From: a virus
Lineage: Duplodnaviria > Heunggongvirae > Uroviricota > Caudoviricetes
Reading direction: 5' to 3' (one strand)
DNA: 28,120 nucleotides
IMG/VR virus record: IMGVR_UViG_2690316278_000016
Position numbers and translations under genes: made by a program. A model generated the notes under the pieces. That model saw only the letters and a list, made by a program, of their open reading frames with translations, searched no databases and was not told the origin of the DNA. Below are positions 1-27,594 of this stretch, piece by piece (positions within the stretch are counted from its first letter, which is position 1; the number at the start of each line of letters is the position of its first letter).

Positions 1-1011
1 TTATAACGTCACTCCGCCTTTTAGTGGATTCAGAGCGACGGCATTTTGCAGATAGTCAGGCGCAAGGTGCGCATAGGCCATCGTCTGCTGAATGCTCGCA
101 TGTCCCAGAATCTGTTGCAGTGCGATTATATTGCCCCCATTCATCATGAAATGGCTTGCGAATGTATGCCGCAGGATGTGGGTTGCCTGATTGGGTGGTA
201 TATCAGGTTTCACTCTGCGTAAAATCCCGCAAAATTTCTCATAATCAACTTTGAATAATTTGGCGCTGGCCTCCTCTTTAACTTTTTTCTCCAGTTCCTC
301 AGAAATCGGCACGGTTCGCTTTTTACCGTTTTTGGTTTTCAGGAAGGTAACCCTGCAATTTGTAATCTGTGCTGGTTTTAGCGTGGCAACTTCCGTCCAT
401 CTTCCTCCAGTGCTCAGACATAAAAGCGCGACAAGTAAGTCATCACCAGCCAAAACATTTAACAGTTTTTCGATTTCTGCTTTTTCCAGGAACGTCATTT
501 CAGGGTTGGCCTCCGCCAGTGGCGGCAGTCCGTGAATTGGGTGTTGCCCGGAAAATTCATCCAATTGAATTAATTTTGTGAACATGCCGGATAATCTGTA
601 CATGTCACGGTTTATCGTTGCGGCACTGATACCATCACGTAGTCGCATGGAACGATAATCCATCAAAGCCCTTTTGCTCATCCTGCTCACTGGTATATCA
701 CCTATGCCGCTGATGGTTTTGAGTAGATGATTAAACTCTTTTGTTCCATGCTCGTGGTTTTGCCCGTGATATTTCCACCAGATGTCCAGCAACTCACTCA
801 AAGTCCGGCGGTCTGCTCGCTGGCCTCCCCATTCTTTCTGACTGGCATTGGCGATTGTGTATCGCTCAAATGCTAGTGCTTCAGCTTTTCTTTCGAATTT
901 CCTGCGGATGCGTTTTCCGTCGCGACCGCGAGGTCTAATGTCCACTTCATAGCGACCATCATCGAGCTTCTTAATTGCCATAAGAAAGCCCTCCGGCGCT
1001 GTATTCACCAT
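1..1011 (-). CDS. int: Phage integrase, tyrosine recombinase (P2 Int-like); stop codon at 1-3, so the att site lies just outside the window
   Basis: 336-aa ORF; C-terminal catalytic region HILRHTFASHF...LGHASIQQTMAYAHL (HxxR...Y box); first gene of a P2-order prophage, followed by C and cox. Confidence 0.9.
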   Translation of the reverse strand: MVNTAPEGFLMAIKKLDDGRYEVDIRPRGRDGKRIRRKFERKAEALAFERYTIANASQKEWGGQRADRRTLSELLDIWWKYHGQNHEHGTKEFNHLLKTISGIGDIPVSRMSKRALMDYRSMRLRDGISAATINRDMYRLSGMFTKLIQLDEFSGQHPIHGLPPLAEANPEMTFLEKAEIEKLLNVLAGDDLLVALLCLSTGGRWTEVATLKPAQITNCRVTFLKTKNGKKRTVPISEELEKKVKEEASAKLFKVDYEKFCGILRRVKPDIPPNQATHILRHTFASHFMMNGGNIIALQQILGHASIQQTMAYAHLAPDYLQNAVALNPLKGGVTL

Positions 1012-3012: not shown

Positions 3013-3237
3013 ATGCCGGACAACATAGATTTTATTCAGGAACAACAGGCTGAATTACTGGAGCGCCAGATTAACGCGGCAAGGGTAAAACATTGCGGTG
3101 CTTCTGCGCTGGTTTGCGAAGAGTGTGACGCGCCAATTCCTGCTGCCCGTCGTGCGGCTTATCCGTCAGCCACGCGTTGTGTTTCCTGTCAGTCAGTCTT
3201 TGAAGCAAAAAACAAACATTACCGGAGAACGGCATGA
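3013..3237 (+). CDS. TraR/DksA-family C4 zinc-finger protein (P2 orf82-like)
   Basis: 74 aa with CEEC...(17 aa)...CVSC, i.e. C-x2-C-x17-C-x2-C. Confidence 0.7.
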   Translation: MPDNIDFIQEQQAELLERQINAARVKHCGASALVCEECDAPIPAARRAAYPSATRCVSCQSVFEAKNKHYRRTA

Positions 3238-3509
3238 GTATTCGTATTGAAATTGGCGAACGTTATGTCGTTACCAGTGACAGCTTCCAGTTTATTCTCC
3301 ACGAGAAAAAGAGAGCGGAAAGCGGTAAAAACGCCGGTCAGGAATGGCTGGCGGTGGTTGGTTATTACCCGAAATTAAGCCAGCTCGTTTCCGGCCTGAT
3401 GCATCACGATATTCTGACCGGAAGCGCAAAGTCTTTTGCTGATTTAAACGCGCAGGTTGAGCAACTCAGCAAGCGTTGTTCAGAGGCTTTTGGCTCATAT
3501 GGCCGTTAA
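3234..3509 (+). CDS. Hypothetical early protein (P2 orf83 position)
   Basis: 91-aa ORF, start overlaps previous stop, 3' end overlaps the A start. Confidence 0.45.
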   Translation: MSIRIEIGERYVVTSDSFQFILHEKKRAESGKNAGQEWLAVVGYYPKLSQLVSGLMHHDILTGSAKSFADLNAQVEQLSKRCSEAFGSYGR

Positions 3510-5796
3510 AGCCTCCGGGCGTTTTGTCCCTCCGTCAGCATTTGCTGCAGGCACCGGTAAGGCGTTTACCGGTGCTTATGCATGGAACGCGCCACGCGAG
3601 GCTGTCGGGCGCGAAAGACCCCTTACACGTGACGAGATGCGTCAGGTGCAAGGTGTTTTATCCACGATTAACCGCCTGCCTTACTTTTTGCGCTCGCTGT
3701 TTACGTCACGCTATGACTACATCCGGCGCAATAAAAGCCCGGTGCACGGGTTTTATTTCCTCACATCCACTTTTCAGCGTCGTTTATGGCCGCGCATTGA
3801 GCGTGTGAATCAGCGCCATGAAATGAACACCGACGCGTCGATGCTGTTTCTGGCTGAGCGTGACCACTATGCGCGCCTGCCGGGAATGAATGACAAGGAG
3901 CTGAAAAAGTTTGCCGCCCGTATCTCATCGCAGCTTTTCATGATGTATGAGGAACTCAGCGATGCCTGGGTGGATGCGCATGGCGAAAAAGAATCGCTGT
4001 TTACGGATGAGGCGCAGGCTCACCTCTATGGTCATGTTGCTGGCGCTGCACGTGCTTTCAATATTTCCCCTCTCTACTGGAAAAAATACCGTAAAGGACA
4101 GATGACCACGAGGCAGGCATATTCTGCCATTGCCCGTCTGTTTAACGATGAGTGGTGGATTAGTCAGCTTAAAGGCCAGCGTATGCGCTGGCATGAGGCG
4201 TTACTGATTGCTGTCGGGGAGGTCAATAAAGACCGTTCTCCTTATGCCAGTAAACATGCCATTCGTGATGTGCGTGCACGCCGCCAGGCAAATCTGGAAT
4301 TTCTTAAATCGTGTGATCTCGAAAACAGGGAAACAGGCGAGCGCATCGACCTTATCAGTAAGGTGATGGGCAGTATTTCTAATCCTGAAATTCGCCGGAT
4401 GGAGCTGATGAACACCATTGCCGGTATTGAGCGTTACGCCGCCGCAGAAGGTGATGTGGGGATGTTTATCACGCTGACCGCGCCGTCAAAGTATCACCCG
4501 ACACGTCAGGTTGGAAAAGGCGAAAGTAAAACCGTCCAGCTAAATCACGGCTGGAACGATGAGGCATTTAATCCAAAGGATGCGCAGCGTTATCTCTGCC
4601 GTATCTGGAGCCTGATGCGCACGGCATTCAAGGATAATGATTTACAGGTCTACGGTTTGCGAGTCGTCGAGCCACACCACGACGGAACGCCGCACTGGCA
4701 TATGATGCTTTTTTGTAATCCACGCCAGCGTAACCAGATTATCGAAATCATGCGTCGCTACGCGCTCAAAGAGGATGGCGACGAAAGAGGAGCTGCGCGA
4801 AACCGTTTTCAGGCAAAACATCTTAATCGGGGCGGTGCTGCGGGGTATATCGCGAAATACATCTCAAAAAATATCGACGGCTATGCACTGGATGGGCAGC
4901 TCGATAACGATAGCGGCAGACCGCTGAAAGATACTGCCGCGGCTGTTACCGCATGGGCGTCAACGTGGCGCATTCCGCAATTTAAAACGGTTGGCCTGCC
5001 GACAATGGGGGCTTACCGTGAACTACGCAAATTGCCTCGCGGCGTCAGCATTGCTGATGAGTTTGACGAGCGCGTCGAGGCTGCACGCGCCGCCGCAGAC
5101 AGTGGTGATTTTGCGCTGTATATCAGCGCGCAGGGTGGGGCAAATGTCCCGCGCGATTGTCAGACTGTCAGGGTCGCCCGTAGTCCGTCGGATGAAGTTA
5201 ACGAGTACGAGGAAGAAGTCGAGAGAGTGGTCGGCATTTACGCGCCGCATCTCGGCGCGCGTCATATTCATATCACCAGAACGACGGACTGGCGCATTGT
5301 TCCGAAAGTGCCGGTCGTTGAGCCTTTGACTTTAAAAAGCGGCATCGCCGCGCCTCGGAGTCCTGTCAATAACTGTGGAAAGCTCACTGGTGGTGATACT
5401 TCGTTACCGGCTCCCACACCTTCTGAGCACGCCGCAGCAGTGCTTAATCTGGTAGATGACGGTGTTATCGAATGGAATGACCCGGAGGTTGTGAGGGCGC
5501 TCAGAGGTGCATTAAAACACGGACTGAGAAGACCAAACCGTCAGCAAAGAAACGGAAGCCCGTTAAAACCGCATGAAATAGCGCCATCGGCCAGACTGAC
5601 CCGGTCGGAACGAATGCAAATTACCCGTATCCGCGTTGACCTTGCTCAGAACGGTATCAGGCCGCAGCGATGGGAGCTTGAGGTGCTGGCGCGTGGGGCA
5701 ACCGTAAATTATGACGGGAAAAAATTCACTTACCCGCTCGCTGATGAGTGGTCGGGATTCTCAACAGTATTAGAGTCAAACTCAGTGAAGCGTTAA
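3499..5796 (+). CDS. A: Rolling-circle replication initiation endonuclease (P2 gpA-like, HUH superfamily)
   Basis: About 765 aa from ATG 3499 (MAVKASGRF...); HUH motif PHWHMMLF and tyrosine motif GYIAKYISK visible in the translation. Confidence 0.88.
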   Translation: MAVKASGRFVPPSAFAAGTGKAFTGAYAWNAPREAVGRERPLTRDEMRQVQGVLSTINRLPYFLRSLFTSRYDYIRRNKSPVHGFYFLTSTFQRRLWPRIERVNQRHEMNTDASMLFLAERDHYARLPGMNDKELKKFAARISSQLFMMYEELSDAWVDAHGEKESLFTDEAQAHLYGHVAGAARAFNISPLYWKKYRKGQMTTRQAYSAIARLFNDEWWISQLKGQRMRWHEALLIAVGEVNKDRSPYASKHAIRDVRARRQANLEFLKSCDLENRETGERIDLISKVMGSISNPEIRRMELMNTIAGIERYAAAEGDVGMFITLTAPSKYHPTRQVGKGESKTVQLNHGWNDEAFNPKDAQRYLCRIWSLMRTAFKDNDLQVYGLRVVEPHHDGTPHWHMMLFCNPRQRNQIIEIMRRYALKEDGDERGAARNRFQAKHLNRGGAAGYIAKYISKNIDGYALDGQLDNDSGRPLKDTAAAVTAWASTWRIPQFKTVGLPTMGAYRELRKLPRGVSIADEFDERVEAARAAADSGDFALYISAQGGANVPRDCQTVRVARSPSDEVNEYEEEVERVVGIYAPHLGARHIHITRTTDWRIVPKVPVVEPLTLKSGIAAPRSPVNNCGKLTGGDTSLPAPTPSEHAAAVLNLVDDGVIEWNDPEVVRALRGALKHGLRRPNRQQRNGSPLKPHEIAPSARLTRSERMQITRIRVDLAQNGIRPQRWELEVLARGATVNYDGKKFTYPLADEWSGFSTVLESNSVKR

Positions 5797-5882
5797 CTCA
5801 ATAAATATGAGTTTATAAGTTAGGCCTCGAGATTTTGTAGAAAGGGATGTATACTGAGTATCGTATAGATTTGGAGTGAGTG

Positions 5883-6905
5883 ATGACTGTAAAGGTGATA
5901 GACCTTTTTTGTGGTGCTGGCGGATTAACTCATGGTTTGCAGCTTGCGGGGCTTGATGTCGTTGCAGGCATTGACCTTGAGGGGGAATGTAGGTTTCCCT
6001 ATGAAAGAAACAATAAATCTAAGTTTATTGAGCAAGATATCGCTAAAGTAACAAAAGAGGAACTGCTGAGGCTTTATGGTGATGCGTCTGTAAAAGTATT
6101 GGCAGGATGCGCACCTTGCCAACCTTTTTCAAAATATACTCAAGGAAAAGATAAGGCTGATGATAAAAAATGGCCTCTTCTTTATGAGTTCGAACGTTTA
6201 ATTCGCGAAGTATCTCCAGAAATCGTAACAATGGAGAACGTTCCTGATGTAACTAAACATAAAGTTTATAATGATTTTTATAATTCATTGTTAAAGTTGG
6301 GCTATTATGTTTGGGCGTCTAAGATTGATTGTGTCGAATATGGAATCCCACAAAACCGTTCCCGTCATGTATTGTTGGCCTCAAAATTGGGGGCGATTGA
6401 GTTAGTAAAACGTGACGATGTTATTTTGAAAACAGTTAGAGATGCAATAGGAAATCTTCCTCCATTAGAAGATGGCCAAACAGATCCAAATGATATATTA
6501 CATAGAGCCAGTAAATTAAATCCGATTAATAAAAAAAGAATTATACACTCTGTTCCTGGTGGTACATGGAAGGACTGGCCGAAAGAGTTGGTTGCCGCTT
6601 GTCATATGAAATCCAGCGGTAAAGGGTATGCTAGTGTATATGGGCGCATGTCTTGGGATAAGCCAAGTCCAACAATTACAACTCTTTGTTATGGTTTCGG
6701 GAATGGGCGTTTTGGACATCCAGAACAGCATAGAGCGATTTCTCTTAGAGAGGCTGCTTTATTGCAAACTTTCCCGATGGATTATATTTTTGTAGAAGAC
6801 AAAAACAAGTTTGTTATAAGAAGTATTGGGAAAATGATAGGTAATGCTGTTCCTGTGGAACTAGGAAAAGCAATTGGGCAATCAATCAAGAACCATTTAG
6901 AATGA
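5883..6905 (+). CDS. DNA (cytosine-5)-methyltransferase, complete
   Basis: Motif I FCGAGG, catalytic motif IV GCAPCQPFS, motif VI ENV, motif VIII QNRSR, C-terminal GNAVPVELG; GGAG RBS 6 nt upstream of ATG 5883; AT-rich codon usage unlike flanking phage genes. Confidence 0.88.
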   Translation: MTVKVIDLFCGAGGLTHGLQLAGLDVVAGIDLEGECRFPYERNNKSKFIEQDIAKVTKEELLRLYGDASVKVLAGCAPCQPFSKYTQGKDKADDKKWPLLYEFERLIREVSPEIVTMENVPDVTKHKVYNDFYNSLLKLGYYVWASKIDCVEYGIPQNRSRHVLLASKLGAIELVKRDDVILKTVRDAIGNLPPLEDGQTDPNDILHRASKLNPINKKRIIHSVPGGTWKDWPKELVAACHMKSSGKGYASVYGRMSWDKPSPTITTLCYGFGNGRFGHPEQHRAISLREAALLQTFPMDYIFVEDKNKFVIRSIGKMIGNAVPVELGKAIGQSIKNHLE

Positions 6906-6911
6906 TAAAAT

Positions 6912-6928
6912 GGCCTGCTTTACAGGCC
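6912..6928. terminator. Short hairpin between the convergent methyltransferase and HEPN genes (possible bidirectional terminator)
   Basis: GGCCTG-CTTTA-CAGGCC inverted repeat in the 29-bp gap between the two stop codons; stem is short and T-tracts are weak. Confidence 0.35.
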
Positions 6929-6934
6929 TTATAA

Positions 6935-7615
6935 CTATTGTTCTAAATATTCATTATTATTTATATAGTGCTCTATATTATTCACGATAGCATCAAGATA
7001 GGCGATTACTTCTAATGAAATATTCTCTAAGTCCTGATATGAAACATTTTTTCCAATCTCAGCAAATGATACATTGCCATGAGATAAATCATTACGATGT
7101 TGTTTAACAGTGGCTAATTTTTCACCATGTTTAGTGTGAGTGTAATCGGAATGTGTAGAAAAACCATATATTTTCGATTTTTCTTTGATTTCCTCTCTAT
7201 CAATATTTCCTGAGAATATTTTCTTTTTGTTGAACGTGCCATAAGATATACCGCAAGATATACCTTTGGTAAGGTGATTAACTAAACTTTCAACATTTAC
7301 AGATTCATTTTTTAATCTTTTTAATATTTCTGACCTGAGATTTTTCCTGAGTTTGTCAAATTCTACGTTTCTATCATAAATAGTCTCATGAATAAGGCAG
7401 ATAGCTTCTCTCATTGTTGATTCAATGAGGTTATATAACAGTATATATACTGCTCCCTTTAGAGTTTTTCGTGATTGAGCAGTAATGGAGAACTTATGTT
7501 CTTTATCATCAGCTGATATCAGTTCTGCACCGGCATACTCAATAAATTTCAAAAGATCCAAATAGGCCAAGATCTCTCCTGACCTTTCGTCAAAATCCTC
7601 ACGAAAACGATCCAT
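6935..7615 (-). CDS. HEPN-like domain protein (MAE_28990/MAE_18760-type), putative RNase effector
   Basis: 226 aa; C-terminal RNDLSHG fits the HEPN Rx4HG motif; start codon sits 1 nt after the upstream DUF262 gene stop (TAA-C-ATG). Confidence 0.6.
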   Translation of the reverse strand: MDRFREDFDERSGEILAYLDLLKFIEYAGAELISADDKEHKFSITAQSRKTLKGAVYILLYNLIESTMREAICLIHETIYDRNVEFDKLRKNLRSEILKRLKNESVNVESLVNHLTKGISCGISYGTFNKKKIFSGNIDREEIKEKSKIYGFSTHSDYTHTKHGEKLATVKQHRNDLSHGNVSFAEIGKNVSYQDLENISLEVIAYLDAIVNNIEHYINNNEYLEQ

Positions 7616-7616
7616 G

Positions 7617-8759
7617 TTAATCCTCTAATAATTTATCCCGAACATATTCAATTCGTTCAATTACCTTCACGCGACTATTAGCTCCGTCGGAAGTGGTCAA
7701 TCGTTTGAATTCTTCTGAGCTTAGCCAATCTAAGTTCTTGGGAACAAGGTCAGGGACTTCACGTAATGCAAGTGCTGCGCCAACAGCGAGAGATTCGAAT
7801 CTAACTCGAGGTGTAGATTTTGCAGTAATAGTTTTCTTGAATCCTGCTGGGAAATAGTTTTCAACAAAAGATAGAACATTAGCAAACTCTTGTTTCATTG
7901 AGTTTTGTTTAGTTTCGTCTATATCTCGATTTTCTGACATATAGTCATTTAGAAAATCCCGTACGGAATGATCAAAGTTCTTGTACTTATCTACGTAGGC
8001 AAAGAATCTTAATGTAAATTCTAACCGTTCATCTCGTTTTTCTTTAGTCTGAGATAAAGGTGCTAATTCTTTAAATTTAGGTATTGTTGAGCATGGCTTA
8101 ATAACCTGTGTATATAAATTTGTTGAACCAAGTTCTGATCCTTTACGGACTTCCATATCTTTCAATATATCGCTGCCAGAGTTAATACGCTCAAAAAGAT
8201 CTCTACGGGTTTCTTCATTGCATTTAGAACTCAATTCTATAACGCGGACAGGAATTCTCATGAAACGACGTTGACGTGATAATGGTAAATCTTGGAATTT
8301 GAAACCATTAAGGACGTCTAAAGATTTCAGGTCTTGTAAAACTAATTCATTTTGGATAAAAGCGTGTATAGTCCTAACTCGTTGTGAGCCATCAACAATC
8401 TCAATTCGCCCATCTAAATCGGGATCTTCGGAGAGAACATCTGCTATAAATATATATGGTATAGGAAAACCCAAAATCAAAGACTCTATCAATTTTGATT
8501 GTCTTTTTTCACTCCAAACAAAATCCCTTTGATAATCAGGAACAAAGAGTTCGTTAGTATCATCCTCTAATCCGTTATGATACTTATTAACTAATAACTC
8601 AACGGTAAATTCTTTGGTCTCAAAATCCACATCCTTTTGCTCAGCACGAATTTGCTCTTCAGCGTTTTGCTTTATCACCTCTAGCTGAGCAAGCAACTCT
8701 GCTCTTTTCTTGGCATTATCTTCATTTTCTAGTTGAGATTTTAAATCAATAATGTCCAT
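7617..8759 (-). CDS. DUF262 (ParB/Srx-like, GmrSD N-terminal-type) domain protein
   Basis: N-terminal DYQRDFVWS and IVDGSQRVRTI (DGQQR-type motif); ATG at 8759 with AAGGGAA RBS upstream, ORF track extends to a TTG at 8777; no obvious HNH/DUF1524 C-terminal motif. Confidence 0.7.
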   Translation of the reverse strand: MDIIDLKSQLENEDNAKKRAELLAQLEVIKQNAEEQIRAEQKDVDFETKEFTVELLVNKYHNGLEDDTNELFVPDYQRDFVWSEKRQSKLIESLILGFPIPYIFIADVLSEDPDLDGRIEIVDGSQRVRTIHAFIQNELVLQDLKSLDVLNGFKFQDLPLSRQRRFMRIPVRVIELSSKCNEETRRDLFERINSGSDILKDMEVRKGSELGSTNLYTQVIKPCSTIPKFKELAPLSQTKEKRDERLEFTLRFFAYVDKYKNFDHSVRDFLNDYMSENRDIDETKQNSMKQEFANVLSFVENYFPAGFKKTITAKSTPRVRFESLAVGAALALREVPDLVPKNLDWLSSEEFKRLTTSDGANSRVKVIERIEYVRDKLLED

Positions 8760-9103
8760 GTCTAGTTCCCTTAACAAGTGTTAAAAATTGAAGCGGATAG
8801 CATACCGCATAGATCATGAAAAATGCCATCATGTGCATGGATTTGCATGCGTCAGAAGTCGCTTTTATTGTTAGTTATCACTAGCGCTGGCGTGCTCTTG
8901 GAGTGTTCATGCAACTGCATTAAAACCGCCCCATGAAGCGGGCGGGCGAGGCGGGGAAAGCACTGCGCGCTGGCGGTGGTGCTGATTTTATTTTCCAGCG
9001 TCTCAGCGCGTCGTGACGGCGCTTAGTCTGCCCGTTGGGCGTTGGTGTGTCTGCGGGATTTTTTGTGCGGTGATGAGCGTGTGAGGGCGTGATGGCGGGG
9101 TGT

Positions 9104-9125
9104 AAAAAAGCCGCCCGCAGGCGGC
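9104..9125 (-). terminator. Rho-independent terminator downstream of portal gene Q
   Basis: GCCGCC-CGCA-GGCGGC hairpin at 9110-9125 followed on the minus strand by a 6-nt U-run (plus-strand AAAAAA at 9104-9109), 5 nt after the Q stop. Confidence 0.55.
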
Positions 9126-9130
9126 GATGT

Positions 9131-10165
9131 TCAGCCGTTGTCAGTGTCCAGTGAGTAGTTTTTAAAGCGGATGACCTCCTGACCGAGCCAGCCGTTTATC
9201 TCGCGGATCCTGTCCTGTAACGGGATAAGCTCATTGCGGACAAAGACCTTTGCCACTTTCTCAATATCACCCAGCGACCCGACGTTCTCCGGCTTGCCCC
9301 CCATCAACTGAAAGGGGATGCGGTGCGCGTCCAGCAGGTCAGCGGCGCTGGCTTTTTTGATATTAAAAAAATCGTCCTTCGTTGCCACTTCACTGAGCGG
9401 GATAATTTTAATGCCGTCGGCTTTCCCCTGTGGGGCATAGAGAAACAGATTTTTAAAGTTATTGCGGCCTTTCGACTTAACCATGTTTTCGCGAAGCATT
9501 TCGATATCGTTGCGATCCTGCACGGCATCGGTGACGTACATGATGTATCCGGCATGTGCGCCGTTTTCGTAATACTTGCGGCGGAACAGCGTGGCCGACT
9601 CATTCAGCCATGCAGAGTTAAGGGCGCTGAGATATTCCGGCAGGCCGTACAGCTCCTGATTAATATCAGGCTCCAGCAGGTGAAACACGGAGCCGGGCGC
9701 GAAGGCTGTCGGCTCGTTGAAGGACGGCACCCACCAGTAAACATCCTCCTCCACGCCACGACGGGTATATTTGGCCGGTGAGGTTTCCAGTCTGATGACC
9801 TTACCGGTGGTGCTGTAACGCTTTTCCAGAAACGCATTACCGAACACCAGAAAATCCAGCACAAAACGGCTGAAATCCTGCTGGGAAAGCCACGGGTGCG
9901 GGATAAACGTTGAAGCCAGAATATTACGTTTGACGTAAATCGGTGAGCTGTGATGCACGGCAGCACGCAGGCTTTTTGCCAGACCGGTAAAGCTGACCGG
10001 CGGCTCATACCATCTGCCGTTACTGATGCACTCGACGTAATCCAGAATGTCACGGCGGTCGAGTACCGGCACCGGCTCACCAAAGGTGAATGCTTCCATT
10101 TTCGGGGCGCTGGCGGTGATTGTTTTTGCCGCAGGTCGCGGTGTTTTCCCTTTTTTCTTGCTCAT
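9131..10165 (-). CDS. Q: Portal protein (P2 gpQ-like)
   Basis: 344-aa ORF, same length as P2 Q, immediately downstream of the terminase with a TGATG stop/start overlap. Confidence 0.88.
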   Translation of the reverse strand: MSKKKGKTPRPAAKTITASAPKMEAFTFGEPVPVLDRRDILDYVECISNGRWYEPPVSFTGLAKSLRAAVHHSSPIYVKRNILASTFIPHPWLSQQDFSRFVLDFLVFGNAFLEKRYSTTGKVIRLETSPAKYTRRGVEEDVYWWVPSFNEPTAFAPGSVFHLLEPDINQELYGLPEYLSALNSAWLNESATLFRRKYYENGAHAGYIMYVTDAVQDRNDIEMLRENMVKSKGRNNFKNLFLYAPQGKADGIKIIPLSEVATKDDFFNIKKASAADLLDAHRIPFQLMGGKPENVGSLGDIEKVAKVFVRNELIPLQDRIREINGWLGQEVIRFKNYSLDTDNG

Positions 10166-11937
10166 CAGTAAAACTCCAGAATGGTGGATGTCAGCGGAGT
10201 GCTGATACCGGCGGTGAGTGGCTCATTTAACAGGGCGTGCATGGTTGCCCAGGCGAGGTCGGCGTGGCTGGCTTCCTCGCTGCGGCTGGCCTCATAGGTG
10301 GCACTGCGTCCGCTGCTGGTCATGGTCTTGCGGATAGCCATGAACGAGCTGGTGATGTCGGTGGCGCTGACGTCATATTCCAGACAGCCACGGCGGATGA
10401 CGTCTTTGGCCTTGAGCACCATTGCGGTTTTCATTTCCGGCGTGTAGCGGATATCGCGCGCGGCGGGATAGAACGAGCGCACGAGCTGGAACACGCCGAC
10501 ACCGAGGCCGGTGGCATCAATACCGATGTATTCGACGTTGTATTTTTCGGTGAGTTTGCGGATGGACTCCGCCTGGGTGGCAAAGTCCATGCCTTTCCAC
10601 TGGTGACGCTCAAGTATTCTGAATTTGCCACCGGCCACCACCGGCGGTGCCAGCACCACGCATCCGGCGCTGTCGCCACGGTGTGACGGGTCGTAACCAA
10701 TCCATACCGGGCGGGAGCCGAACGGATTTGCGGCAAACGGCGCGTAGTCTTCCCATTCTTCCAGCGTGTCGACCATGCAGCGTTGCAGCTCCTCGAACGG
10801 GAACACCGATACCTTGTCGTCAACAAATTCACACATGAACAGGTTTTTAAAATCGTCGGCGCTGTTTTCGCGTTTGAGCTGCTCAATGTCGAACAATGTG
10901 CAGCCGCCTTTCAGGGCGTCCTCAATGGTGACAATCTGCCGCCACTGGCCGTCCGCACAGAGAAGACCACCGGCAAGGGCGTTATGACTGACGTCGATTT
11001 CCACACGTTCGGCGGCGCTGGCGCGTCCCCGGTTGAACAGTTCACCCGACCAGAACGGGTAGGCGTCGTGCGCCAGCGTGGACGGGGTGGAGAAATAGGT
11101 CGAGCGCAGGTGACTCTGTGAGGCCATACCTGATGCCACCTTACGCAGTACCTGAAAATTCGGGATCCAGAAAATCTCGTCGACGTACAGGTCGCCGTTA
11201 TGGCTCTGTGCGGTGTTGGAGTTGGTGCCGAGAAAAATCAGTTTTGCGCCGTTATTGCCCAGGACAATCGGGTCACCGGTCAGGTCAACGTCAACCAGAC
11301 GAGCAAAGGCGATGATGTATTCACGGAACACATACGCCTGCGTTTTACTGGCCGACAGAAAAATCTGGTTATGGCCGGTTTTCAGGGCGCGCAGCAGCGC
11401 CTCGCGGGAAAAATAAAACGTCGCGCCAATCTGGCGGGATTTCAGGATATCGCGGATGCGGTGCTCAAGCCCGGCACGATACCAGTGCAACTGATAGTCG
11501 AAAGACTGCTCAAAGAAAATCTGCTCCAGCTTTTCGATGGCCTCGTCACTGAAAAAATTCTTTTTCGGTTTGCGACGCCCGCCTTTGTTGCGGTTAGCGA
11601 TGTTCGGATTAAGGTCTGCCTCGTTGCCGGTCTGGCTGTAGCGGTTTACCCGTGCCAGTCGTTCAATCTGGCGTCCGAGCAGGTCAATTTCCTTGAAGTC
11701 ACCGCCGGTTTTCTGCGGTTTGATGATGAGCTGGGTCAGCCGCGCTTCCAGACTCATTTCGACACGGCTGATGGGGGCAACACTGTCCCAGCCGTCGCGC
11801 TGTTTCCAGCTCTGCACCGTCGGGCGTTTCATCTGCAACATGGCGGCAATCTGCGGCACGGAAAACCCCTGCCAGTACAGCAGCGCCGCCTGACGACGCG
11901 GGTCGTGTAAAAGAGTGGTGTCTGTGGTGATGGTCAT
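10165..11937 (-). CDS. P: Terminase large (ATPase) subunit (P2 gpP-like)
   Basis: About 590 aa from ATG at 11937 (MTITTDTTLL...); ORF track's 600-aa version begins at an upstream non-ATG start. Confidence 0.88.
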   Translation of the reverse strand: MTITTDTTLLHDPRRQAALLYWQGFSVPQIAAMLQMKRPTVQSWKQRDGWDSVAPISRVEMSLEARLTQLIIKPQKTGGDFKEIDLLGRQIERLARVNRYSQTGNEADLNPNIANRNKGGRRKPKKNFFSDEAIEKLEQIFFEQSFDYQLHWYRAGLEHRIRDILKSRQIGATFYFSREALLRALKTGHNQIFLSASKTQAYVFREYIIAFARLVDVDLTGDPIVLGNNGAKLIFLGTNSNTAQSHNGDLYVDEIFWIPNFQVLRKVASGMASQSHLRSTYFSTPSTLAHDAYPFWSGELFNRGRASAAERVEIDVSHNALAGGLLCADGQWRQIVTIEDALKGGCTLFDIEQLKRENSADDFKNLFMCEFVDDKVSVFPFEELQRCMVDTLEEWEDYAPFAANPFGSRPVWIGYDPSHRGDSAGCVVLAPPVVAGGKFRILERHQWKGMDFATQAESIRKLTEKYNVEYIGIDATGLGVGVFQLVRSFYPAARDIRYTPEMKTAMVLKAKDVIRRGCLEYDVSATDITSSFMAIRKTMTSSGRSATYEASRSEEASHADLAWATMHALLNEPLTAGISTPLTSTILEFY

Positions 11938-12110
11938 GAATACCTCGCCGTGATGAATACACGGCAAGGCTACTGAGTCGCGCCCCGCGATTCGCTAATG
12001 TGCTGTTGTGTCAGTGATAAACCATCCGGGACTGATGGCGGAGGATGCGCATCGTCGGGAAACTGATGCCGACATGTGACTCCTCTAATCACTATTCAGG
12101 ACTCCTGACA
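11938..12110. promoter_or_regulatory. Divergent late-promoter region between the P-Q and O-N-M-L operons
   Basis: Intergenic region between divergently oriented terminase and scaffold genes; no confident Ogr-type TGT-N12-ACA dyad found by eye. Confidence 0.35.
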
Positions 12111-21895: not shown

Positions 21896-22764
21896 ATGAG
21901 TACCACAACACGAAAATTTAAAACCATTATCACCGATACGGGTGCAAAAAAATTAGCGCAGGCAACCGCGCCAGATGGGAAACCTGTCCGCCTGACACAT
22001 ATGGCCGTGGGTGACGGCGGCGGTACTTTACCCACGCCAGACAGTAAGCAGACCCGTCTTGTGCATGAGGTGTGGCGACATACCGTTAATCGCGTCACCC
22101 TGGACGCAACACATCAGAACCACATTATTGCGGAGCTGGTTATTCCTCCTGAAACGGGCGGATTCTGGATCCGGGAAATTGGTGTGTTTGATGAGCACGG
22201 CGATTTGATCGCGGTAGGCAATACTGCCGAAAGTTACAAGCCAACCGTTGCCGAAGGATCCGGACGTGCACAAACATTTCGCACCATTCTGACCGTATCC
22301 AGCACTGCCACTGTGGCGCTTACCGTGGATAACACCATGGTGATGGCCACAGTGAATTACGTGGATGACAAACTGAAAGAGCATGAACAGTCACGACGTC
22401 ACCCGGACGCCTCGCTGACCGCAAAAGGCCTTGTCCAGCTCAGCAACGCCACCAACAGCACGTCTGAAACGCTGGCAGCGACACCAAAAGCCGTTAAGGC
22501 AGTAATGGATGAAACGAACAAGAAAGCCCCATTAAACAGCCCGGCACTGACCGGAACGCCAACAACACCAACTGCGCGACAGGGAACGAATAATACCCAA
22601 ATCGCAAGCACGGCTTTCGTTATGGCTGCGATTGCCGCACTTGTAGACTCTTCGCCTGATGCACTGAACACACTGAACGAGCTGGCGGCGGCGCTGGGCA
22701 ACGACCCGAATTTTGCGACCACCATGACTAACGCGCTTGCGGGTAAGCAACCGAAAGATGCCAC
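21896..22764 (+). CDS. Tail fibre protein, 5' portion (copy 2, diverged paralogue of copy 1), truncated at an N-gap
   Basis: N-terminus MSTTTRKFKTIITDTGAKKLAQATAPDGKPVRLTHMAVGDGGG..., colinear with but clearly diverged from copy 1; same SRRHPDASLTAKGLVQLS repeat entry. Confidence 0.65.
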
Positions 22765-22775
22765 NNNNNNNNNNN

Positions 22776-25161
22776 TTCGCAGACCTGTCGCATGGTCATC
22801 ATCGTCAGCAGTGTGGCCTCGGTGGAGCTGACCATTGACACCACAACGGTGATGGCGACACAGGATTACGTTGATGACAAAATTGCAGAGCACGAACAGT
22901 CACGACGTCACCCGGACGCCTCGCTGACCGCAAAAGGCCTTGTCCAGCTCAGTAGTGCCACCAACAGCACGTCTGAAACGCTTGCGGCAACGCNNNNNNN
23001 NNNNNNNNNNNNNNNNNNNNNNNNNNNNNNNNNNNNNNNNNNNNNNNNNNNNNNNNNNNNNNNNNNNNNNNNNNNNNNNNNNNNNNNNNNNACCAACAGC
23101 ACGTCTGAAACACTGGCCGCAACGCCGAAAGCGGTAAAGGCCGCCTATGACCTTGCTAACGGGAAATACACTGCACAGGACGCCACTACAGCGCGAAAAG
23201 GTCTTGTCCAGCTCAGTANNNNNNNNNNNNNNNNNNNNNNNNNNNNNNNNNNNNNNNNNNNNNNNNNNNNNNNNNNNNNNNNNNNNNNNNNNNNNNNNNN
23301 NNNNNNNNNNNNNNNNNNNNNNNNNNNNNNNNNNNNNNNNNNNNNNNNNNNNNNNNNNNNNNNNNNNNNNNNNNNNNNNNNNNNNNNNNNNNNNNNNNNN
23401 NNNNNNNNNNNNNNNNNNNNNNNNNNNNNNNNNNNNNNNNNNNNNNNNNNNNNNNNNNNNNNNNNNNNNNNNNNNNNNNNNNNNNNNNNNNNNNNNNNNN
23501 NNNNNNNTGCCACTCTGACGGCGCTGGCGGGGCTTGCTACTGCGGCAGACAGGTTTCCGTATTTTACGGGGAATGATGTCGCCAGCCTGGCAACCCTGAC
23601 AAAAGTCGGGCGGGATATTCTTGCGAAATCGACCGTTGCCGCCGTTATCGAATACCTCGGTTTACAGGAAACGGTAAATCAGGCTTCTGGCGCATTACAG
23701 AAAAACCAGAACGGCGCAGATATTCCGGGGAAAGATACCTTCACCAAAAATATTGGTGCCTGCCGCGCATATAGCTCATGGCTGAATATTGGTGGCGATA
23801 GTCAGGTCTGGACAACCGCGCAATTTATTTCGTGGCTGGAGAGTCAGGGAGCATTTAACCATCCTTACTGGATGTGCAAAGGCTCATGGGCTTATGCAAA
23901 TAATAAGGTCATTACAGATACAGGTTGCGGAAATATTTGTCTTGCAGGTGCTGTGGTGGAAGTTATTGGCACTCGCGGCGCAATGACCATACGCGTTACC
24001 ACGCCGAGCACGTCCAGCGNNNNNNNNNNNAACGACCCGAATTTTGCGACCACCATGACTAACGCGCTTGCGGGTAAGCAACCGAAAGATGCCACCCTGA
24101 CGGCGCTGGCCGGACTTACTACTGCGGCAGGCAAGTTTCCGTATTTTACGGGGAATGATGTCGCCAGCCTGGCAACCCTGACAAAAGTCGGGCGGGATAT
24201 TCTTGCGAAATCGACCGTTGCTGCCGTTATCGAATACCTCGGTTTACGAGAACTCGGCACAAGCGGGGAGAAAATACCGTTACTCAGTACAGCGAATACC
24301 TGGACTAATCGACAAACATTCAGCGGTGGCCTTTCTGGTGAACTATCCGGCAATGCTTCTACAGCTGCAAAATTAAAAACTGCCAGGAAAATAAGCAATG
24401 TGGCTTTTGATGGTTCCTCCGATATCACATTAAAAGCAAGTCATGTTGGTGCGTTTGCCTTAGGGAAAACAGGAAGCACCGTTGCGAATGATAAAGCAGT
24501 TGGATGGAACTGGAGTAGCGGAGCCTATAACGCAACTATTAGTGGTGCATCAACGTTAATTATTCATTTTTATATGGGAGAAGGAAGTTGTCCTGCAGCT
24601 CAGTTTCGGATTAATTATAAAAATGGCGGTATTTTTTATCGTTCAGCCCGTGATGGTTATGGTTTTGAAGCCGACTGGTCCGAATTTTACACCACCAGAA
24701 AACCTTCAGCAGGAGATGTTGGTGCACTGCCGTTATCTGGTGGTCAACTGAATGGTGCACTGGGTATCGGAACATCCAGTGCTCTTGGCGGTAATTCGAT
24801 TGTATTGGGTGATAATGACACGGGCTTTAAACAAAAAGGCGATGGTAATCTGGATGTTTATGCTAATAACGTCCATGTTATGCGCTTTGTCTCCGGAAGC
24901 ATTCAAAGTAATAAAACCATAAATATTACGGGACGTGTTAATCCCTCGGATTACGGTAACTTTGATTCCCGCTATGTGAGAGATGTCAGACTTGGCACAC
25001 GAGTTGTTTAGACCATGAAGAAAGGCGTGATGTATGAAAAATCAGGCCATGTAATCACGGGGCTTGGTATTATCGGTGAAGTCGATGGTGATGATCCGGC
25101 AGTATTCAGACCAATACAAAAGTTAATTAACGGAACATGGTATAACGTATCGCAGGTATAA
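22776..25161 (+). pseudogene. H: Tail fibre mosaic: repeated blocks and two alternative C-terminal regions joined through four N-gaps; in-frame TAG at 25009-25011
   Basis: 22776-22940 duplicates 21393-21557; 23508-23660 and 24110-24250 are near-duplicates; C-terminal region ends ...RLGTRVV-TAG-TMKKGVMYEK...[17 protein letters not shown]-stop, same frame either side of the TAG. Confidence 0.55.
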
Positions 25162-25163
25162 TC

Positions 25164-25442
25164 ATGCAGCATTTAAAAAACATTGTCGCAGGTAATCCAA
25201 AAACCGTTGAACAATACCAGCTAACAAAGAATTTTGATGTTATCTGGTTATGGTCCGAAGATGGAAAAAATTGGCATGAGGAATTAAAAAACTTTCAGGA
25301 GGATACAATAAAACTGGCTTACACAGTTGAGGGAATAATTATTGCTATAGACAAGGATGTATCAGCAATTAATCCAGAAGGTTTAAGTGTCGTTGAGTTG
25401 CCTGATATTACAGCAAATCGCCGGGCTGATATTTCGGGCAAC
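25164..25442 (+). pseudogene. G: Tail fibre assembly protein (tfa, P2 gpG-like), 5' half only, truncated by IS3-family element
   Basis: N-terminus [22 protein letters not shown]...[13 protein letters not shown] is colinear with the two intact tfa paralogues downstream, then switches to transposase sequence after the n at 25444. Confidence 0.7.
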
Positions 25443-26582
25443 TNTGAAAATCAACTTTCGATCAGTGAAGGCGCTTCCCGATTATCTCTTCCTGAAGGCA
25501 CTTTAGGACAATGGGTTACCGCCGCCAGAAAAGGGCTCGGTACTCCTGGTTCCCGCACGGTGGCTGAACTGGAATCTGAAATTCTGCAACTGCGTAAGGC
25601 GTTAAATGAAGCTCGCCTTGAGCGAGATATATTAAAAAAAGCAACAGCGTATTTTGCACAGGAGTCGCTGAAAAATACGCGTTAATCGAACAATGGCGAC
25701 AACAATTTCCCATTGAAGCGATGTGTCAGGTATTTGGTGTATCCAGGAGCGGTTATTACAACTGGGTACAGCATGAACCCTCAGACAGAAAACAAAGTGA
25801 TGAGCGGCTAAAACTGGAGATTAAGGTGGCACATATCCGCACTCGCGAAACATATGGAACCCGGCGGCTCCAGACGGAGCTGGCAGAGAATGGCATCATC
25901 GTTGGTCGTGACCGACTGGCACGTCTTCGTAAGGAGCTAAGGCTACGCTGTAAGCAGAAACGCAAGTTCAGAGCGACTACGAACTCGAACCACAATCTGC
26001 CAGTTGCGCCAAATCTGCTGAACCAGACGTTCGCTCCTACAGCACCAAATCAGGTCTGGGTGGCGGACCTGACGTATGTTGCCACACAGGAGGGATGGTT
26101 GTACCTCGCTGGCATCAAAGATGTTTATACGTGCGAAATTGTCGGCTACGCCATGGGAGAGCGCATGACAAAAGAGCTGACAGGTAAAGCCCTGTTTATG
26201 GCGCTCAGGAGCCAGCGCCCACCTGCCGGGCTAATCCACCACTCTGATCGAGGTTCACAGTACTGCGCATACGATTACCGGGTCATACAGGAGCAGTCTG
26301 GTCTGAAAACATCAATGTCGCGTAAAGGTAACTGTTACGACAACGCTCCGATGGAAAGCTTCTGGGGAACGCTGAAAAATGAGAGCCTGAGCCACTATCG
26401 TTTTAATAACCGGGATGAAGCCATCTCAGTAATACGGGAATACATTGAGATTTTCTACAATCGTCAGCGTCGTCACTCTCGTCTGGGGAATATCTCCCCG
26501 GCAGCCTTCAGGGAAAAATATCATCAGATGGCTGCTTAAAAAAAGAACAAATGGTAGTGTCCGCTATTGCCAGTACACCTCA
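25443..26582 (+). mobile_element. IS3-family insertion sequence, apparently 5'-truncated (orfA lacks its first ~20-25 codons and no left inverted repeat or UTR is present)
   Basis: orfA-like frame to stop at 25683-25685 (…WVTAARKG…ILKKATAYFAQESL), A7 slippery run at 25634-25640, orfB in the -1 frame to 26539 with DDE/rve-like residues (WVADLTYV, HSDRGSQY, YDNAPMESFW); boundaries approximate. Confidence 0.75.
25634..25640 (+). promoter_or_regulatory. Programmed -1 ribosomal frameshift site (A AAA AAA) for the OrfAB transposase fusion
   Basis: Heptamer lies in the orfA frame just before the orfA stop; the -1 frame is open from here into orfB. Confidence 0.55.
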
Positions 26583-27567: not shown

Positions 27568-27594
27568 AAGGCCCGATATCGGGCCTTAATTTTT
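27568..27594. terminator. Palindromic hairpin with T-run between convergent tfa genes (bidirectional terminator)
   Basis: AAGGCCCGATATCGGGCCTT perfect palindrome at 27568-27587 followed by AATTTTT. Confidence 0.6.

What the first reader, a model, noticed from the sequence alone, without database searches (positions are those of the whole stretch)
6935..8759. Translationally coupled DUF262 (DGSQR) and HEPN (RNDLSHG) operon: candidate two-gene abortive-infection or restriction module
The upstream protein has the DUF262/ParB-like signature (DYQRDFVWS, IVDGSQRVRTI) but no recognisable DUF1524/HNH C-terminal nuclease domain. The downstream protein carries an Rx4HG HEPN-type motif near its C-terminus and starts 1 nt after the DUF262 stop. 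From memory this DUF262 plus MAE_28990-type HEPN pairing resembles the Dazbog defence system, but I cannot verify that here; if it does not match, the pair is a candidate undescribed system. The HEPN protein would be the predicted RNase effector and the DUF262 protein the sensor/regulator.
Basis: partly seen in the sequence, partly recalled or inferred. Interest (0 to 1): 0.8.

Follow-up and report, generated by a model that had tools for sequence, protein, structure and literature searches.

The report
Methylase-linked DUF262–HEPN phage defence cassette
The two genes are real and form a DUF262 sensor plus HEPN nuclease pair, but they belong to a conserved three-gene cassette with a neighbouring DNA cytosine methylase, carried as cargo in a P2-like prophage; this gene arrangement was listed in 2013, has tested relatives, and has never itself been tested.

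Summary
Two tightly coupled minus-strand genes, DUF262 at 7617-8759 and a MAE_28990-type HEPN at 6935-7615, have the stated motifs and no HNH/DUF1524 domain.

1. It is not Dazbog. No DzbA or DzbB model matches. The best PADLOC matches for the DUF262 protein are NsnA and PD-T4-2_A, and the HEPN protein matches no PADLOC model.
2. The unit has three genes. A convergent C5 cytosine methyltransferase (5883-6905) sits in the same low-GC island. It accompanies the pair in 41 of 41 informative viral loci and in 36 of 80 genome loci from several phyla, and it is the most conserved of the three proteins.
3. It is not undescribed. Anantharaman et al. [quoted passage not shown] PD-T4-2 (DUF262 + HEPN) and PD-lambda-5 (ParB/HEPN fusion + methylase) are validated relatives.

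The cassette lies in the known P2 defence hotspot between the replication gene A and the portal gene.

Most likely mechanism (inferred, not shown): the methylase marks self DNA, the DUF262 NTPase/DNA-binding protein reads that mark, and the HEPN RNase executes growth arrest. It is an ordinary but tractable member of a known kind, and moderately interesting.

The parts
5883..6905 (+). C5 DNA cytosine methyltransferase (340 aa; GTG at 5880 is an alternative start). Third component of the cassette, convergent with the HEPN gene.
   Evidence: PF00145, 198 bits. TIGR00675, 130 bits. Motifs FCGAGG, PCQPFS, ENV, QNRSR and GNAVP are intact. An orthologue (380-690 bits) is adjacent to the pair in 36/80 genome loci and 41/42 viral loci. 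RefSeq start as.
6912..6928 (.). GC-rich hairpin (GGCCTGtaaaGCAGGCC) between the two convergent stop codons; a likely terminator.
   Evidence: Terminator-like site on the minus strand followed by ATTTTAT; sequence.
6935..7615 (-). MAE_28990-family HEPN protein (226 aa), the predicted RNase effector.
7076..7096 (-). RNDLSHG = Rx4H catalytic motif of the HEPN protein (R174...H179).
   Evidence: Read. R174, N175, H179 and G180 are invariant in 34 homologues. The motif is kept in 76 of 80 genome loci.
7613..7625 (-). Gene junction: GAGGA ribosome-binding site inside the last DUF262 codons, TAA stop, 1 nt, then the ATG of the HEPN gene.
   Evidence: Equally tight junctions (2-3 nt gaps or 4-8 nt overlaps) in the Vibrio, cyanobacterial and metagenome loci.
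7617..8759 (-). DUF262/ParB-like NTPase domain plus a helical C-terminal (ParBDB-like) domain (380 aa), the predicted DNA/modification sensor. No nuclease domain.
8379..8393 (-). DGSQR (DGxQR) nucleotide-binding motif of the DUF262 domain.
   Evidence: D123, G124, S125, Q126 and R127 are invariant in 31 homologues. The role of the motif is taken from PMC12065111.
8526..8537 (-). DYQR motif of the DUF262 domain.
   Evidence: D75, Y76 and R78 invariant.
5800..8900 (.). Low-GC cargo island (GC 0.34-0.42 against about 0.55 in the flanks) in the P2 hotspot between replication gene A (3457-5796, +) and the portal gene (9131-10165, -).
   Evidence: Composition. RefSeq annotation of the equivalent E. 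coli prophage. The hotspot is described in PMC9519451 and PMC9122126.

Best explanation
This is a three-gene, modification-coupled anti-phage cassette carried as cargo in the gpA-portal hotspot of a P2-like prophage. It consists of an m5C DNA methyltransferase, a DUF262 (ParB-like NTPase plus helical DNA-binding domain) sensor, and a MAE_28990-type HEPN effector.

Shown here:
- Gene structure, domain identities and folds.
- Intact catalytic motifs in all three proteins.
- Tight coupling of the DUF262 and HEPN genes.
- Near-obligate linkage of the methylase to the pair in mobile contexts.
- Location in the P2 hotspot.

Inferred:
- The methylase marks the resident DNA at one fixed motif.
- The DUF262 protein, which has no nuclease domain of its own, reads the methylation state of DNA in an NTP-dependent way. 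This is what DUF262 does in SspE, GmrSD/BrxU and probably Dazbog.
- On meeting DNA with the wrong state, most simply unmethylated invading DNA, it releases or activates the HEPN dimer.
- The HEPN dimer cleaves RNA and halts the infected cell, so restriction-modification logic is wired to an abortive-infection effector.
- The prophage and its host are protected by the methylase.
For: Domains and folds. Invariant Rx4H, DGxQR and DYQR motifs.

Methylase linkage:
- Vibrio, cyanobacterial and metagenome loci keep PF00145 next to the pair, in different orientations.
- 36/80 species-genome loci have the methylase. In an NJ tree, methylase-less loci nest inside cyanobacterial clades.
- 41/42 IMG/VR loci have it; the one exception is cut by a contig end.
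- Moraxella phages and Peduovirus P24B2, with HEPN only 29-31% identical, also carry a C5 methylase.
- The methylase is the slowest-evolving partner: 59% identical where HEPN is 31%, and 480-565 HMM bits in 40 of the 41 methylase-bearing viral loci. Its variable region is not more diverged than its core, which fits one fixed specificity.

Precedents:
- PD-lambda-5 (ParB/HEPN fusion + methylase) was called a compact RM+Abi system and needed an mrr-deleted host.
- PD-T4-2 (DUF262 + HEPN) defends natively against T4.
- Dazbog's DUF262 system responds to m5C methylation.
- SspE's DUF262 domain senses a co-encoded modification.
Against: - No experiment exists on this family. Nothing here shows RNA cleavage, DNA methylation, the target motif or protein contacts.
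- About 40 cyanobacterial chromosomal loci keep an apparently active DUF262-HEPN pair with no adjacent methylase and no substitute. One has only a methylase remnant (L025). The pair is therefore not obligatorily lethal without a neighbouring methylase.
- PD-T4-2 works without one.
- Known DUF262 sensors are mostly activated by modified DNA, not unmodified DNA, so the polarity of sensing is open.
- ParB/Srx proteins can nick DNA, so the DUF262 protein may itself be an effector.
Confidence: 0.5

Rival explanations
1. Classical restriction-modification with a PrrC-like backup (the Anantharaman 2013 model). The DUF262/ParB protein is itself the DNA-nicking or DNA-cleaving restriction subunit and the methylase protects self DNA. 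The HEPN RNase is a latent suicide guard, held inactive by the restriction subunit and released only when a phage blocks restriction.
For: - The 2013 survey calls the partner a 'ParB nuclease' and proposes exactly this logic for HEPN genes in R-M operons.
- ParB/Srx family members nick DNA.
- A PADLOC Type II REase model weakly matches the DUF262 domain: E 9e-6 here and 6e-12 for a plasmid relative.
- Tight DUF262-HEPN coupling fits a physical complex.
Against: - No HNH/DUF1524, PD-(D/E)XK or other nuclease domain is present in the 380-aa protein.
- In characterised DUF262 proteins the domain is an NTPase/sensor and cleavage is done by a fused HNH domain.
- HEPN is the fastest-evolving partner but keeps its catalytic motif everywhere, as expected of a primary effector.
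Confidence: 0.2
2. The DUF262-HEPN pair is a self-sufficient PD-T4-2/Dazbog-like system triggered by modified phage DNA (type IV logic). The methylase is functionally independent prophage cargo, for example to shield P2 DNA from host restriction.
For: - PD-T4-2 has no methylase and acts on T4.
- Dazbog is triggered by a phage m5C methylase.
- Methylase-less pairs with intact motifs exist in cyanobacteria and on an E. coli IncF plasmid.
- P2-like phages also carry unrelated orphan methylases, such as the Dam-type gene next to gpA in L097.
Against: - Independent cargo would not stay adjacent in 41/41 informative viral loci and across Pseudomonadota, Cyanobacteriota, Bacteroidota and Acidobacteriota, in three different gene arrangements, with 3' ends often overlapping.
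- The same methylase orthologue, not just any methylase, travels with the pair.
Confidence: 0.17
3. A toxin-antitoxin or addiction module that stabilises the prophage. HEPN is the toxin, the DUF262 protein is its antitoxin or regulator, and the methylase acts as in post-segregational killing by R-M systems. Any phage defence is secondary.
For: - HEPN toxins with upstream protein antitoxins are common; the closest folds are HEPN-MNT toxins.
- The coupled gene order fits an antitoxin-toxin pair.
- The cassette is mobile.
Against: - The location is a validated defence hotspot.
- The closest tested relatives are defence systems.
- A 380-aa NTPase/DNA-binding protein that is more conserved than the toxin is not a typical labile antitoxin.
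- Chromosomally fixed, syntenic copies in cyanobacteria do not need addiction.
Confidence: 0.08

Closest known systems
MAE_28990 HEPN / ParB / DNA-methylase operon (Anantharaman, Makarova, Burroughs, Koonin, Aravind 2013, Table 1)
   Same: Exactly this composition: a MAE_28990-family HEPN with an active Rx4H motif, a ParB-superfamily (DUF262) gene and a DNA methylase gene in one neighbourhood. Cyanobacterial members, including Microcystis (L052), cluster with the window's genes.
   Different: That description is one table row from comparative genomics. It gives no experiment, no name in defence-system catalogues and no mention of the P2 hotspot. Its proposed role for HEPN (backup to a ParB DNase) is only one of the readings possible here.
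PD-T4-2 (Vassallo et al. 2022; E. coli ECOR65)
   Same: A two-gene DUF262 + HEPN system. The DUF262 protein here matches the PADLOC PD-T4-2_A model nearly end to end (120 bits; profile positions 55-356 of 363). PD-T4-2B scores on both PF18735 and PF18737 by HHpred, the same HEPN clade as here.
   Different: PD-T4-2 has no methylase and is smaller (1.54 kb for both genes, against 1.83 kb here). The HEPN protein here does not match PADLOC's PD-T4-2_B model at all. NsnA, not PD-T4-2_A, is the best PADLOC hit for the DUF262 protein.
PD-lambda-5 (Vassallo et al. 2022; E. coli ECOR7)
   Same: It combines ParB-like + HEPN + a DNA methyltransferase in a prophage. The authors interpret it as a compact RM+Abi system, and the methylase made an mrr-deleted host necessary.
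   Different: ParB and HEPN are fused in one ~500-aa protein, with only weak HEPN similarity. The methylase is Dam-type (PF02086, N6-adenine), not C5-cytosine. No PD-Lambda-5 model is among the DUF262 protein's 17 PADLOC matches, and the HEPN protein matches no PADLOC model.
Menshen (NsnABC; Millman et al. 2022; Zhang lab 2025 analysis)
   Same: NsnA is the best PADLOC match for the DUF262 protein (183.6 bits; profile positions 25-376 of 385). It has the same ParB-DUF262 + helical ParBDB-type architecture, proposed to be the DNA sensor.
   Different: There is no NsnB ABC ATPase and no NsnC inPIN-nuclease gene anywhere near. The partners here are a HEPN protein and a methylase.
Dazbog (DzbAB; Millman 2022; Stokar-Avihail 2022/2023)
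   Same: A two-gene abortive-infection system whose first gene carries DUF262. Its activity is tied to m5C DNA methylation.
   Different: No Dzb model matches either protein. Dazbog is triggered by a phage methylase, whereas this cassette encodes its own.
SspABCD-SspE and GmrSD/BrxU (DUF262-DUF1524 enzymes)
   Different: Those proteins carry a fused HNH (DUF1524) DNase. Here the nuclease is a separate HEPN protein and the modification is presumably m5C rather than phosphorothioate.

Membership tests
Dazbog (DzbA/DzbB) | Both proteins match the DzbA and DzbB profiles | tested here: not met
   PADLOC-DB v2.0.0 scan. No Dzb model is among the 17 families that match the DUF262 protein at E<=0.01, and no family matches the HEPN protein at E<=10. 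That the library holds Dzb models rests on my knowledge of PADLOC, not on a check here.
Menshen (NsnABC) | NsnA-like ParB-DUF262 + ParBDB protein | tested here: met
   NsnA model E 1.7e-54, 183.6 bits, nearly full length.
Menshen (NsnABC) | Adjacent NsnB ABC/OLD-type ATPase and NsnC effector gene | tested here: not met
   The only neighbours are the HEPN gene, the C5 methylase, gpA and the portal gene. There is no ATPase gene in the island.
PD-T4-2 | PD-T4-2_A-type DUF262 protein | tested here: met
   PD-T4-2_A model E 2.5e-35, 120.2 bits, profile positions 55-356 of 363.
PD-T4-2 | PD-T4-2_B-type HEPN protein encoded directly downstream | tested here: inconclusive
   A HEPN gene lies directly downstream. 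It belongs to the same Pfam clade that PD-T4-2B hits by HHpred (PF18735/PF18737). But it gives no match to PADLOC's PD-T4-2_B profile. I could not obtain the PD-T4-2B sequence for a direct comparison.
PD-lambda-5 | Fused ParB-HEPN protein plus a Dam-type (PF02086) methyltransferase | tested here: not met
   Here DUF262 and HEPN are separate proteins and the methylase is PF00145.
MAE_28990 HEPN-ParB-methylase operon (Anantharaman 2013) | HEPN of the MAE_28990 family with a conserved Rx4H motif | tested here: met
   PF18737, 102 bits against a cut-off of 26.8. RNDLSHG is invariant across homologues.
MAE_28990 HEPN-ParB-methylase operon (Anantharaman 2013) | Neighbouring ParB-superfamily gene and DNA methylase gene | tested here: met
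   DUF262 lies 1 nt upstream of the HEPN gene. The PF00145 methylase is convergent, 29 nt from the HEPN stop. The same trio occurs in 36/80 genome loci and 41/42 viral loci.
GmrSD / BrxU / SspE (type IV-like DUF262-DUF1524) | C-terminal DUF1524 His-Me/HNH nuclease domain | tested here: not met
   No PF07510 or HNH hit. Residues 210-380 of the model are helical only. PADLOC matches to SspE, HEC-05 and HEC-06 are confined to the N-terminal ~70 residues of the DUF262 domain.
Restriction-modification system (functional sense) | The methylase protects self DNA from the linked restriction activity; unmodified DNA is targeted | not testable with these tools
   Only genetic linkage and intact methylase motifs can be shown here. 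Methylation, its motif and its protective role need experiments.

The most novel reading that the evidence does not exclude
The trio is a restriction-modification-type system whose 'restriction' arm is an RNase. A single, family-wide m5C mark written by the methylase is read by the DUF262 NTPase. DNA lacking the mark, or carrying the wrong one, switches on a HEPN ribonuclease. Self/non-self discrimination by DNA methylation is therefore executed as abortive infection rather than DNA cleavage. The near-invariant methylase would make all carriers of the cassette (P2-like phages, Moraxella phages, cyanobacteria) share one epigenetic password.
Probability: 0.35. Interest if true: 0.65.

Novelty: new member of a known kind. 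Interest (0 to 1): 0.42.

Why it matters
DUF262 proteins are recurring sensors in phage defence (GmrSD, BrxU, SspE, Menshen, Dazbog, PD-T4-2). How the stand-alone ones signal to a separate effector is not known. This cassette is small (3 kb), native to E. coli and its relatives, and sits in a well-studied P2 hotspot. It pairs the sensor with its own methylase.

That makes it a convenient system for three questions:
- Does a DUF262 sensor read presence or absence of m5C?
- Can an RM-type mark gate an RNase?
- Why is the methylase so much more conserved than the effector?

The cassette is also missed by PADLOC-DB v2.0.0, because its HEPN component matches no model. Defence inventories built with that version would therefore miss it. 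For this window, the practical message is that the finding should be re-annotated as a three-gene unit.

Tried and rejected
- **Dazbog and Menshen membership.** Dazbog is rejected on the PADLOC profiles and Menshen because the NsnB and NsnC genes are absent.
- **GmrSD/BrxU/SspE-type single-protein enzyme.** Rejected: there is no HNH/DUF1524 domain by Pfam or in the model.
- **Solved structures by sequence.** There are only marginal N-terminal DUF262 matches, and nothing for HEPN.
- **NCBIfam.** No model exists for either protein.
- **Methylase specificity.** It is not Dcm-like: 25% identity in the N-terminal half only. The nearest solved enzyme is M.HaeIII, and only over the catalytic core. 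The motif could not be predicted.
- **Literature search for an experimental study of the trio.** I searched MAE_28990, the neighbouring Microcystis locus tags, DUF262 + HEPN, PD-lambda-5 + ParB, and DUF262 + type II restriction. Only the 2013 survey came up.
- **A substitute methylase or other conserved partner in the methylase-less cyanobacterial loci.** Only syntenic housekeeping neighbours were found.
- **DUF262-HEPN fusions among the 150 best HEPN representatives.** None; all are stand-alone proteins of 144-289 aa.
- **PD-T4-2 and PD-lambda-5 protein sequences for direct alignment.** Only accession numbers and HHpred tables are held.
- **A sigma-70 promoter for the DUF262 operon between 8760 and 8926.** The scan found none at its threshold.
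- **An RNA (tRNA) methylase like Dnmt2.** Considered because the partner is an RNase. I judged it unlikely because of the full-size target-recognition region and the DNMT1/M.HaeIII-like motifs. It was not tested.
Full report
**1. The observation**

The window is a P2-like prophage. Its landmarks are an integrase (1-1011, minus strand), replication gene A (3457-5796, plus), the portal gene (9131-10165, minus), the terminase gene (10165-11967, minus), and head, tail and fibre genes further on. RefSeq annotation of a 97.8% identical E. coli locus agrees.

Between gene A and the portal gene lies a low-GC island. Its GC is 0.34-0.42, against about 0.55 in the flanks. The island holds three genes.

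- a 380-aa DUF262 protein at 7617-8759 (ATG start as in RefSeq; an in-frame TTG at 8777 is the mechanical ORF start);
- a 226-aa protein at 6935-7615.

The sequence shows DYQR (8526-8537), DGSQR (8379-8393) and RNDLSHG (7076-7096). The junction reads GAG GAT TAA c ATG, with GAGGA placed as a ribosome-binding site.

**2. What the two proteins are**

*The upstream protein.*
- It matches only PF03235 (GmrSD_N/DUF262, 91.8 bits) and no nuclease family.
- Residues ~210-380 are purely helical, like the 'ParBDB' DNA-binding domain described for NsnA, SspE, GmrSD and DndB (PMC12065111).
- In 31 homologues down to 58% identity, the DYQR and DGSQR motifs and much of the C-terminal domain are invariant.

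*The downstream protein.*
- It matches PF18737 (HEPN_MAE_28990, 102 bits) and, more weakly, PF18735.
- Its model is confident (pLDDT 91.3, pTM 0.87).
- R174, N175, H179 and G180 are invariant in 34 homologues down to 34% identity.

**3. The missed third gene**

Twenty-nine bases beyond the HEPN stop, across a GC-rich hairpin (6912-6928), a convergent gene ends at 6905. It runs from 5883 on the plus strand. It encodes a C5 cytosine methyltransferase (PF00145, 198 bits; TIGR00675, 130 bits). All catalytic motifs are intact. It lies in the same low-GC island.

The linkage is not a local accident.

*Individual distant loci.*
- Distant HEPN homologues in Vibrio, in the cyanobacterium Brasilonema and in a metagenome lineage all sit next to a DUF262 gene and a PF00145 gene. 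In the metagenome lineage the methylase lies upstream on the same strand, not convergent.
- One cyanobacterial locus lacks the methylase.

*Species-genome scan.*
- A scan of one genome per species found 400 genomes with a relative.
- In the best 80 loci a DUF262 ORF abuts the HEPN gene every time. A full orthologue of this methylase (380-690 bits) is adjacent in 36.
- In a neighbour-joining tree of the HEPN proteins, all gammaproteobacterial, Bacteroidales and Acidobacteriota loci and many cyanobacterial ones carry the methylase.
- Methylase-less loci nest inside cyanobacterial clades. One of them (L025) retains a methylase remnant. This points to secondary loss (the tree is distance-based and midpoint-rooted, so this is indicative only).
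- The methylase-less loci sit in syntenic housekeeping neighbourhoods with no substitute methylase. They keep the HEPN and DUF262 motifs.

*Viral contigs.*
- Of 42 IMG/VR loci, 41 carry the methylase. The only exception is cut off by the contig end.
- The set includes lineages whose HEPN is only 26-33% identical to this one. The viral set thus shows two arrangements: 35 loci have the methylase convergent downstream of HEPN and 6 have it upstream on the same strand.
- Deposited phage genomes show the same trio: nine Moraxella catarrhalis phages and Peduovirus P24B2, where it sits next to gene A, the same hotspot.

*Relative conservation.*
- The methylase is the most conserved partner. It is 59% identical in the Moraxella phages, where HEPN is 31% identical.
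- It scores 480-565 HMM bits in 40 of the 41 methylase-bearing viral loci (151 bits in L135), while HEPN falls to 86-186 bits in the distant lineages.
- Against distant genomes the identities are methylase 50-56%, DUF262 50-65% and HEPN 38-50%.
- Its variable, target-recognition region is no more diverged than its catalytic core. I read this, as an inference, as one fixed specificity for the whole family.
- It is not Dcm-like.

**4. Genomic setting**

The site is the P2 'hotspot 1' between the replication endonuclease and portal genes. P2 itself carries old and tin there, and many defence systems have been found and validated there (PMC9519451; PMC9122126).

- In complete E. coli genomes, 2175 of 5426 match the conserved flank, but only nine carry this cassette.
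- The same trio occupies the hotspot of divergent P2-like prophages in Klebsiella and Tatumella.
- It occurs outside prophages in Providencia and Vibrio; the Vibrio copy lies next to a resolvase gene.
- 26 of the 42 viral loci are flanked by gene A and/or portal homologues. These include a second, distantly related lineage of the trio.
- Both proteins fall in PHROG families of unknown function.

**5. Comparison with known systems**

PADLOC-DB v2.0.0 profiles give the following.
- For the DUF262 protein: NsnA of Menshen (183.6 bits, nearly full length), then PD-T4-2_A (120.2 bits, nearly full length). There are short N-terminal matches to SspE, HEC-05/06 and Dnd Orf5, and a weak match to one Type II REase model. 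No Dzb model matches.
- For the HEPN protein: nothing, even at E<=10. The same holds for three distant relatives.

*Menshen* is excluded because the NsnB ATPase and NsnC effector genes are absent.

*Dazbog* is excluded on profiles. Its biology differs too: it is an abortive-infection system switched on by a phage m5C methylase (bioRxiv 10.1101/2022.08.27.505566).

*PD-T4-2*, from E. coli ECOR65, is the closest validated relative.
- It is a DUF262 + HEPN pair whose HEPN scores on PF18735 and PF18737 by HHpred.
- It protects against T4 both when cloned and in its native strain.
- It has no methylase and is smaller.

*PD-lambda-5* is the closest in composition.
- It has a ParB-HEPN fusion plus a Dam-type methylase.
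- Its discoverers described it as a compact prophage RM+Abi system, and it had to be cloned in an mrr deletion host.

[quoted passage not shown] The gene arrangement is therefore already described. What is missing is any experiment or system name. A full-text search for MAE_28990 finds only that paper.

**6. Mechanism**

*Shown:* three intact enzymes or domains, tight DUF262-HEPN coupling, near-obligate methylase linkage in mobile contexts, and a defence-hotspot location.

*Inferred:* the methylase marks resident DNA. The DUF262 protein, which lacks a nuclease, reads the mark in an NTP-dependent way. The HEPN dimer is the effector, most likely an RNase causing growth arrest.

The precedents are:
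- SspE, whose DUF262 domain senses a co-encoded modification;
- GmrSD and BrxU;
- Dazbog;
- PD-lambda-5.

I give this reading about 0.5. Three uncertainties remain.
- *Polarity of sensing.* Most known DUF262 sensors respond to modified DNA.
- *The DUF262 protein's own activity.* It may itself nick DNA, as the 2013 model and ParB/Srx biochemistry allow. That is rival 1, at 0.2.
- *Necessity of the methylase.* Methylase-less pairs with intact motifs exist, and PD-T4-2 works alone. That is rival 2, at 0.17.

A pure addiction-module reading is least likely (0.08).

**7. Verdict**

The finding is real and correctly described at the level of sequence. Its interpretation needs three corrections: it is not Dazbog, not two genes and not undescribed.

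It is a new member of a known, computationally defined but experimentally untouched kind. Its validated cousins are PD-T4-2 and PD-lambda-5.

A specialist would not be surprised to see it in a P2 hotspot. The interest lies in its tractability for asking how a stand-alone DUF262 sensor, a dedicated m5C methylase and a HEPN nuclease work together, and in the strikingly conserved methylase.

Noticed in passing
window 25164-26539: An IS3-family insertion sequence (173-aa HTH_Tnp_1 ORF at 25164-25685 and 272-aa rve integrase-core ORF at 25721-26539) sits inside the tail-fibre region of the prophage, between the fibre gene and the fibre-assembly genes. It may have disrupted or rearranged the host-range module.
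   Followed up: partly
window 21896-25011: The tail-fibre coding region is split into two overlapping ORFs. One is 311 aa (tail-collar N-terminus plus fibre repeats). The other is 739 aa (fibre repeats plus gp37_C). The distal part, about 22.5-24 kb, drops to GC 0.32-0.34. This looks like a frameshift, or a mosaic, horizontally replaced receptor-binding end.
   Followed up: partly
window 26852-27481 (+) and 27593-28120 (-): Two Caudo_TAP tail-fibre assembly genes lie in opposite orientations at the window's right end. This is the layout of invertible host-range segments (Mu G / P1 C type). No invertase gene or inverted repeats were looked for.
   Followed up: no
L093 2337-3041 (Peduovirus P24B2, LR595873): In this deposited P2-like phage, the methylase of a distantly related trio is only 234 aa and covers just the N-terminal half of PF00145 (profile positions 2-164 of 324). 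A 37-aa ORF is annotated between it and the HEPN gene. Either the methylase is truncated or frameshifted while DUF262 and HEPN look intact, or the assembly has an error.
   Followed up: partly
L068, L073, L077, L081, L083, L089, L090 (Microcoleus genomes): In a group of methylase-less Microcoleus loci, the DUF262 ORF upstream of an intact HEPN gene is only ~190 aa (206-234 HMM bits, against >400 elsewhere). A 67-86 nt gap precedes the HEPN gene. These could be decaying copies or a shortened variant of the sensor.
   Followed up: no
L097 9797-10657 (Klebsiella P2-like prophage): The Klebsiella prophage that carries the same trio also has a Dam-type (PF02086) methyltransferase gene immediately upstream of gene A. 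That prophage therefore encodes two different DNA methylases.
   Followed up: no
L100 (IMGVR_UViG_2558860170_000011, 32.2 kb): An IMG/VR viral contig of P2 size encodes a HEPN protein 100% identical to the window's, with the same flanks. It is probably the same element as the window, or its source.
   Followed up: no
window 8926-9125: Two strong terminator-like hairpins lie on the minus strand (9110-9125 and 8926-8945), downstream of the portal gene and upstream of the DUF262 gene. They fall in the stretch conserved among P2-like phages (query positions 3021-3331), which probably includes the cos region. The promoter of the DUF262-HEPN operon must lie in the ~165 nt between them and the start codon, but the scan did not find one.
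   Followed up: partly
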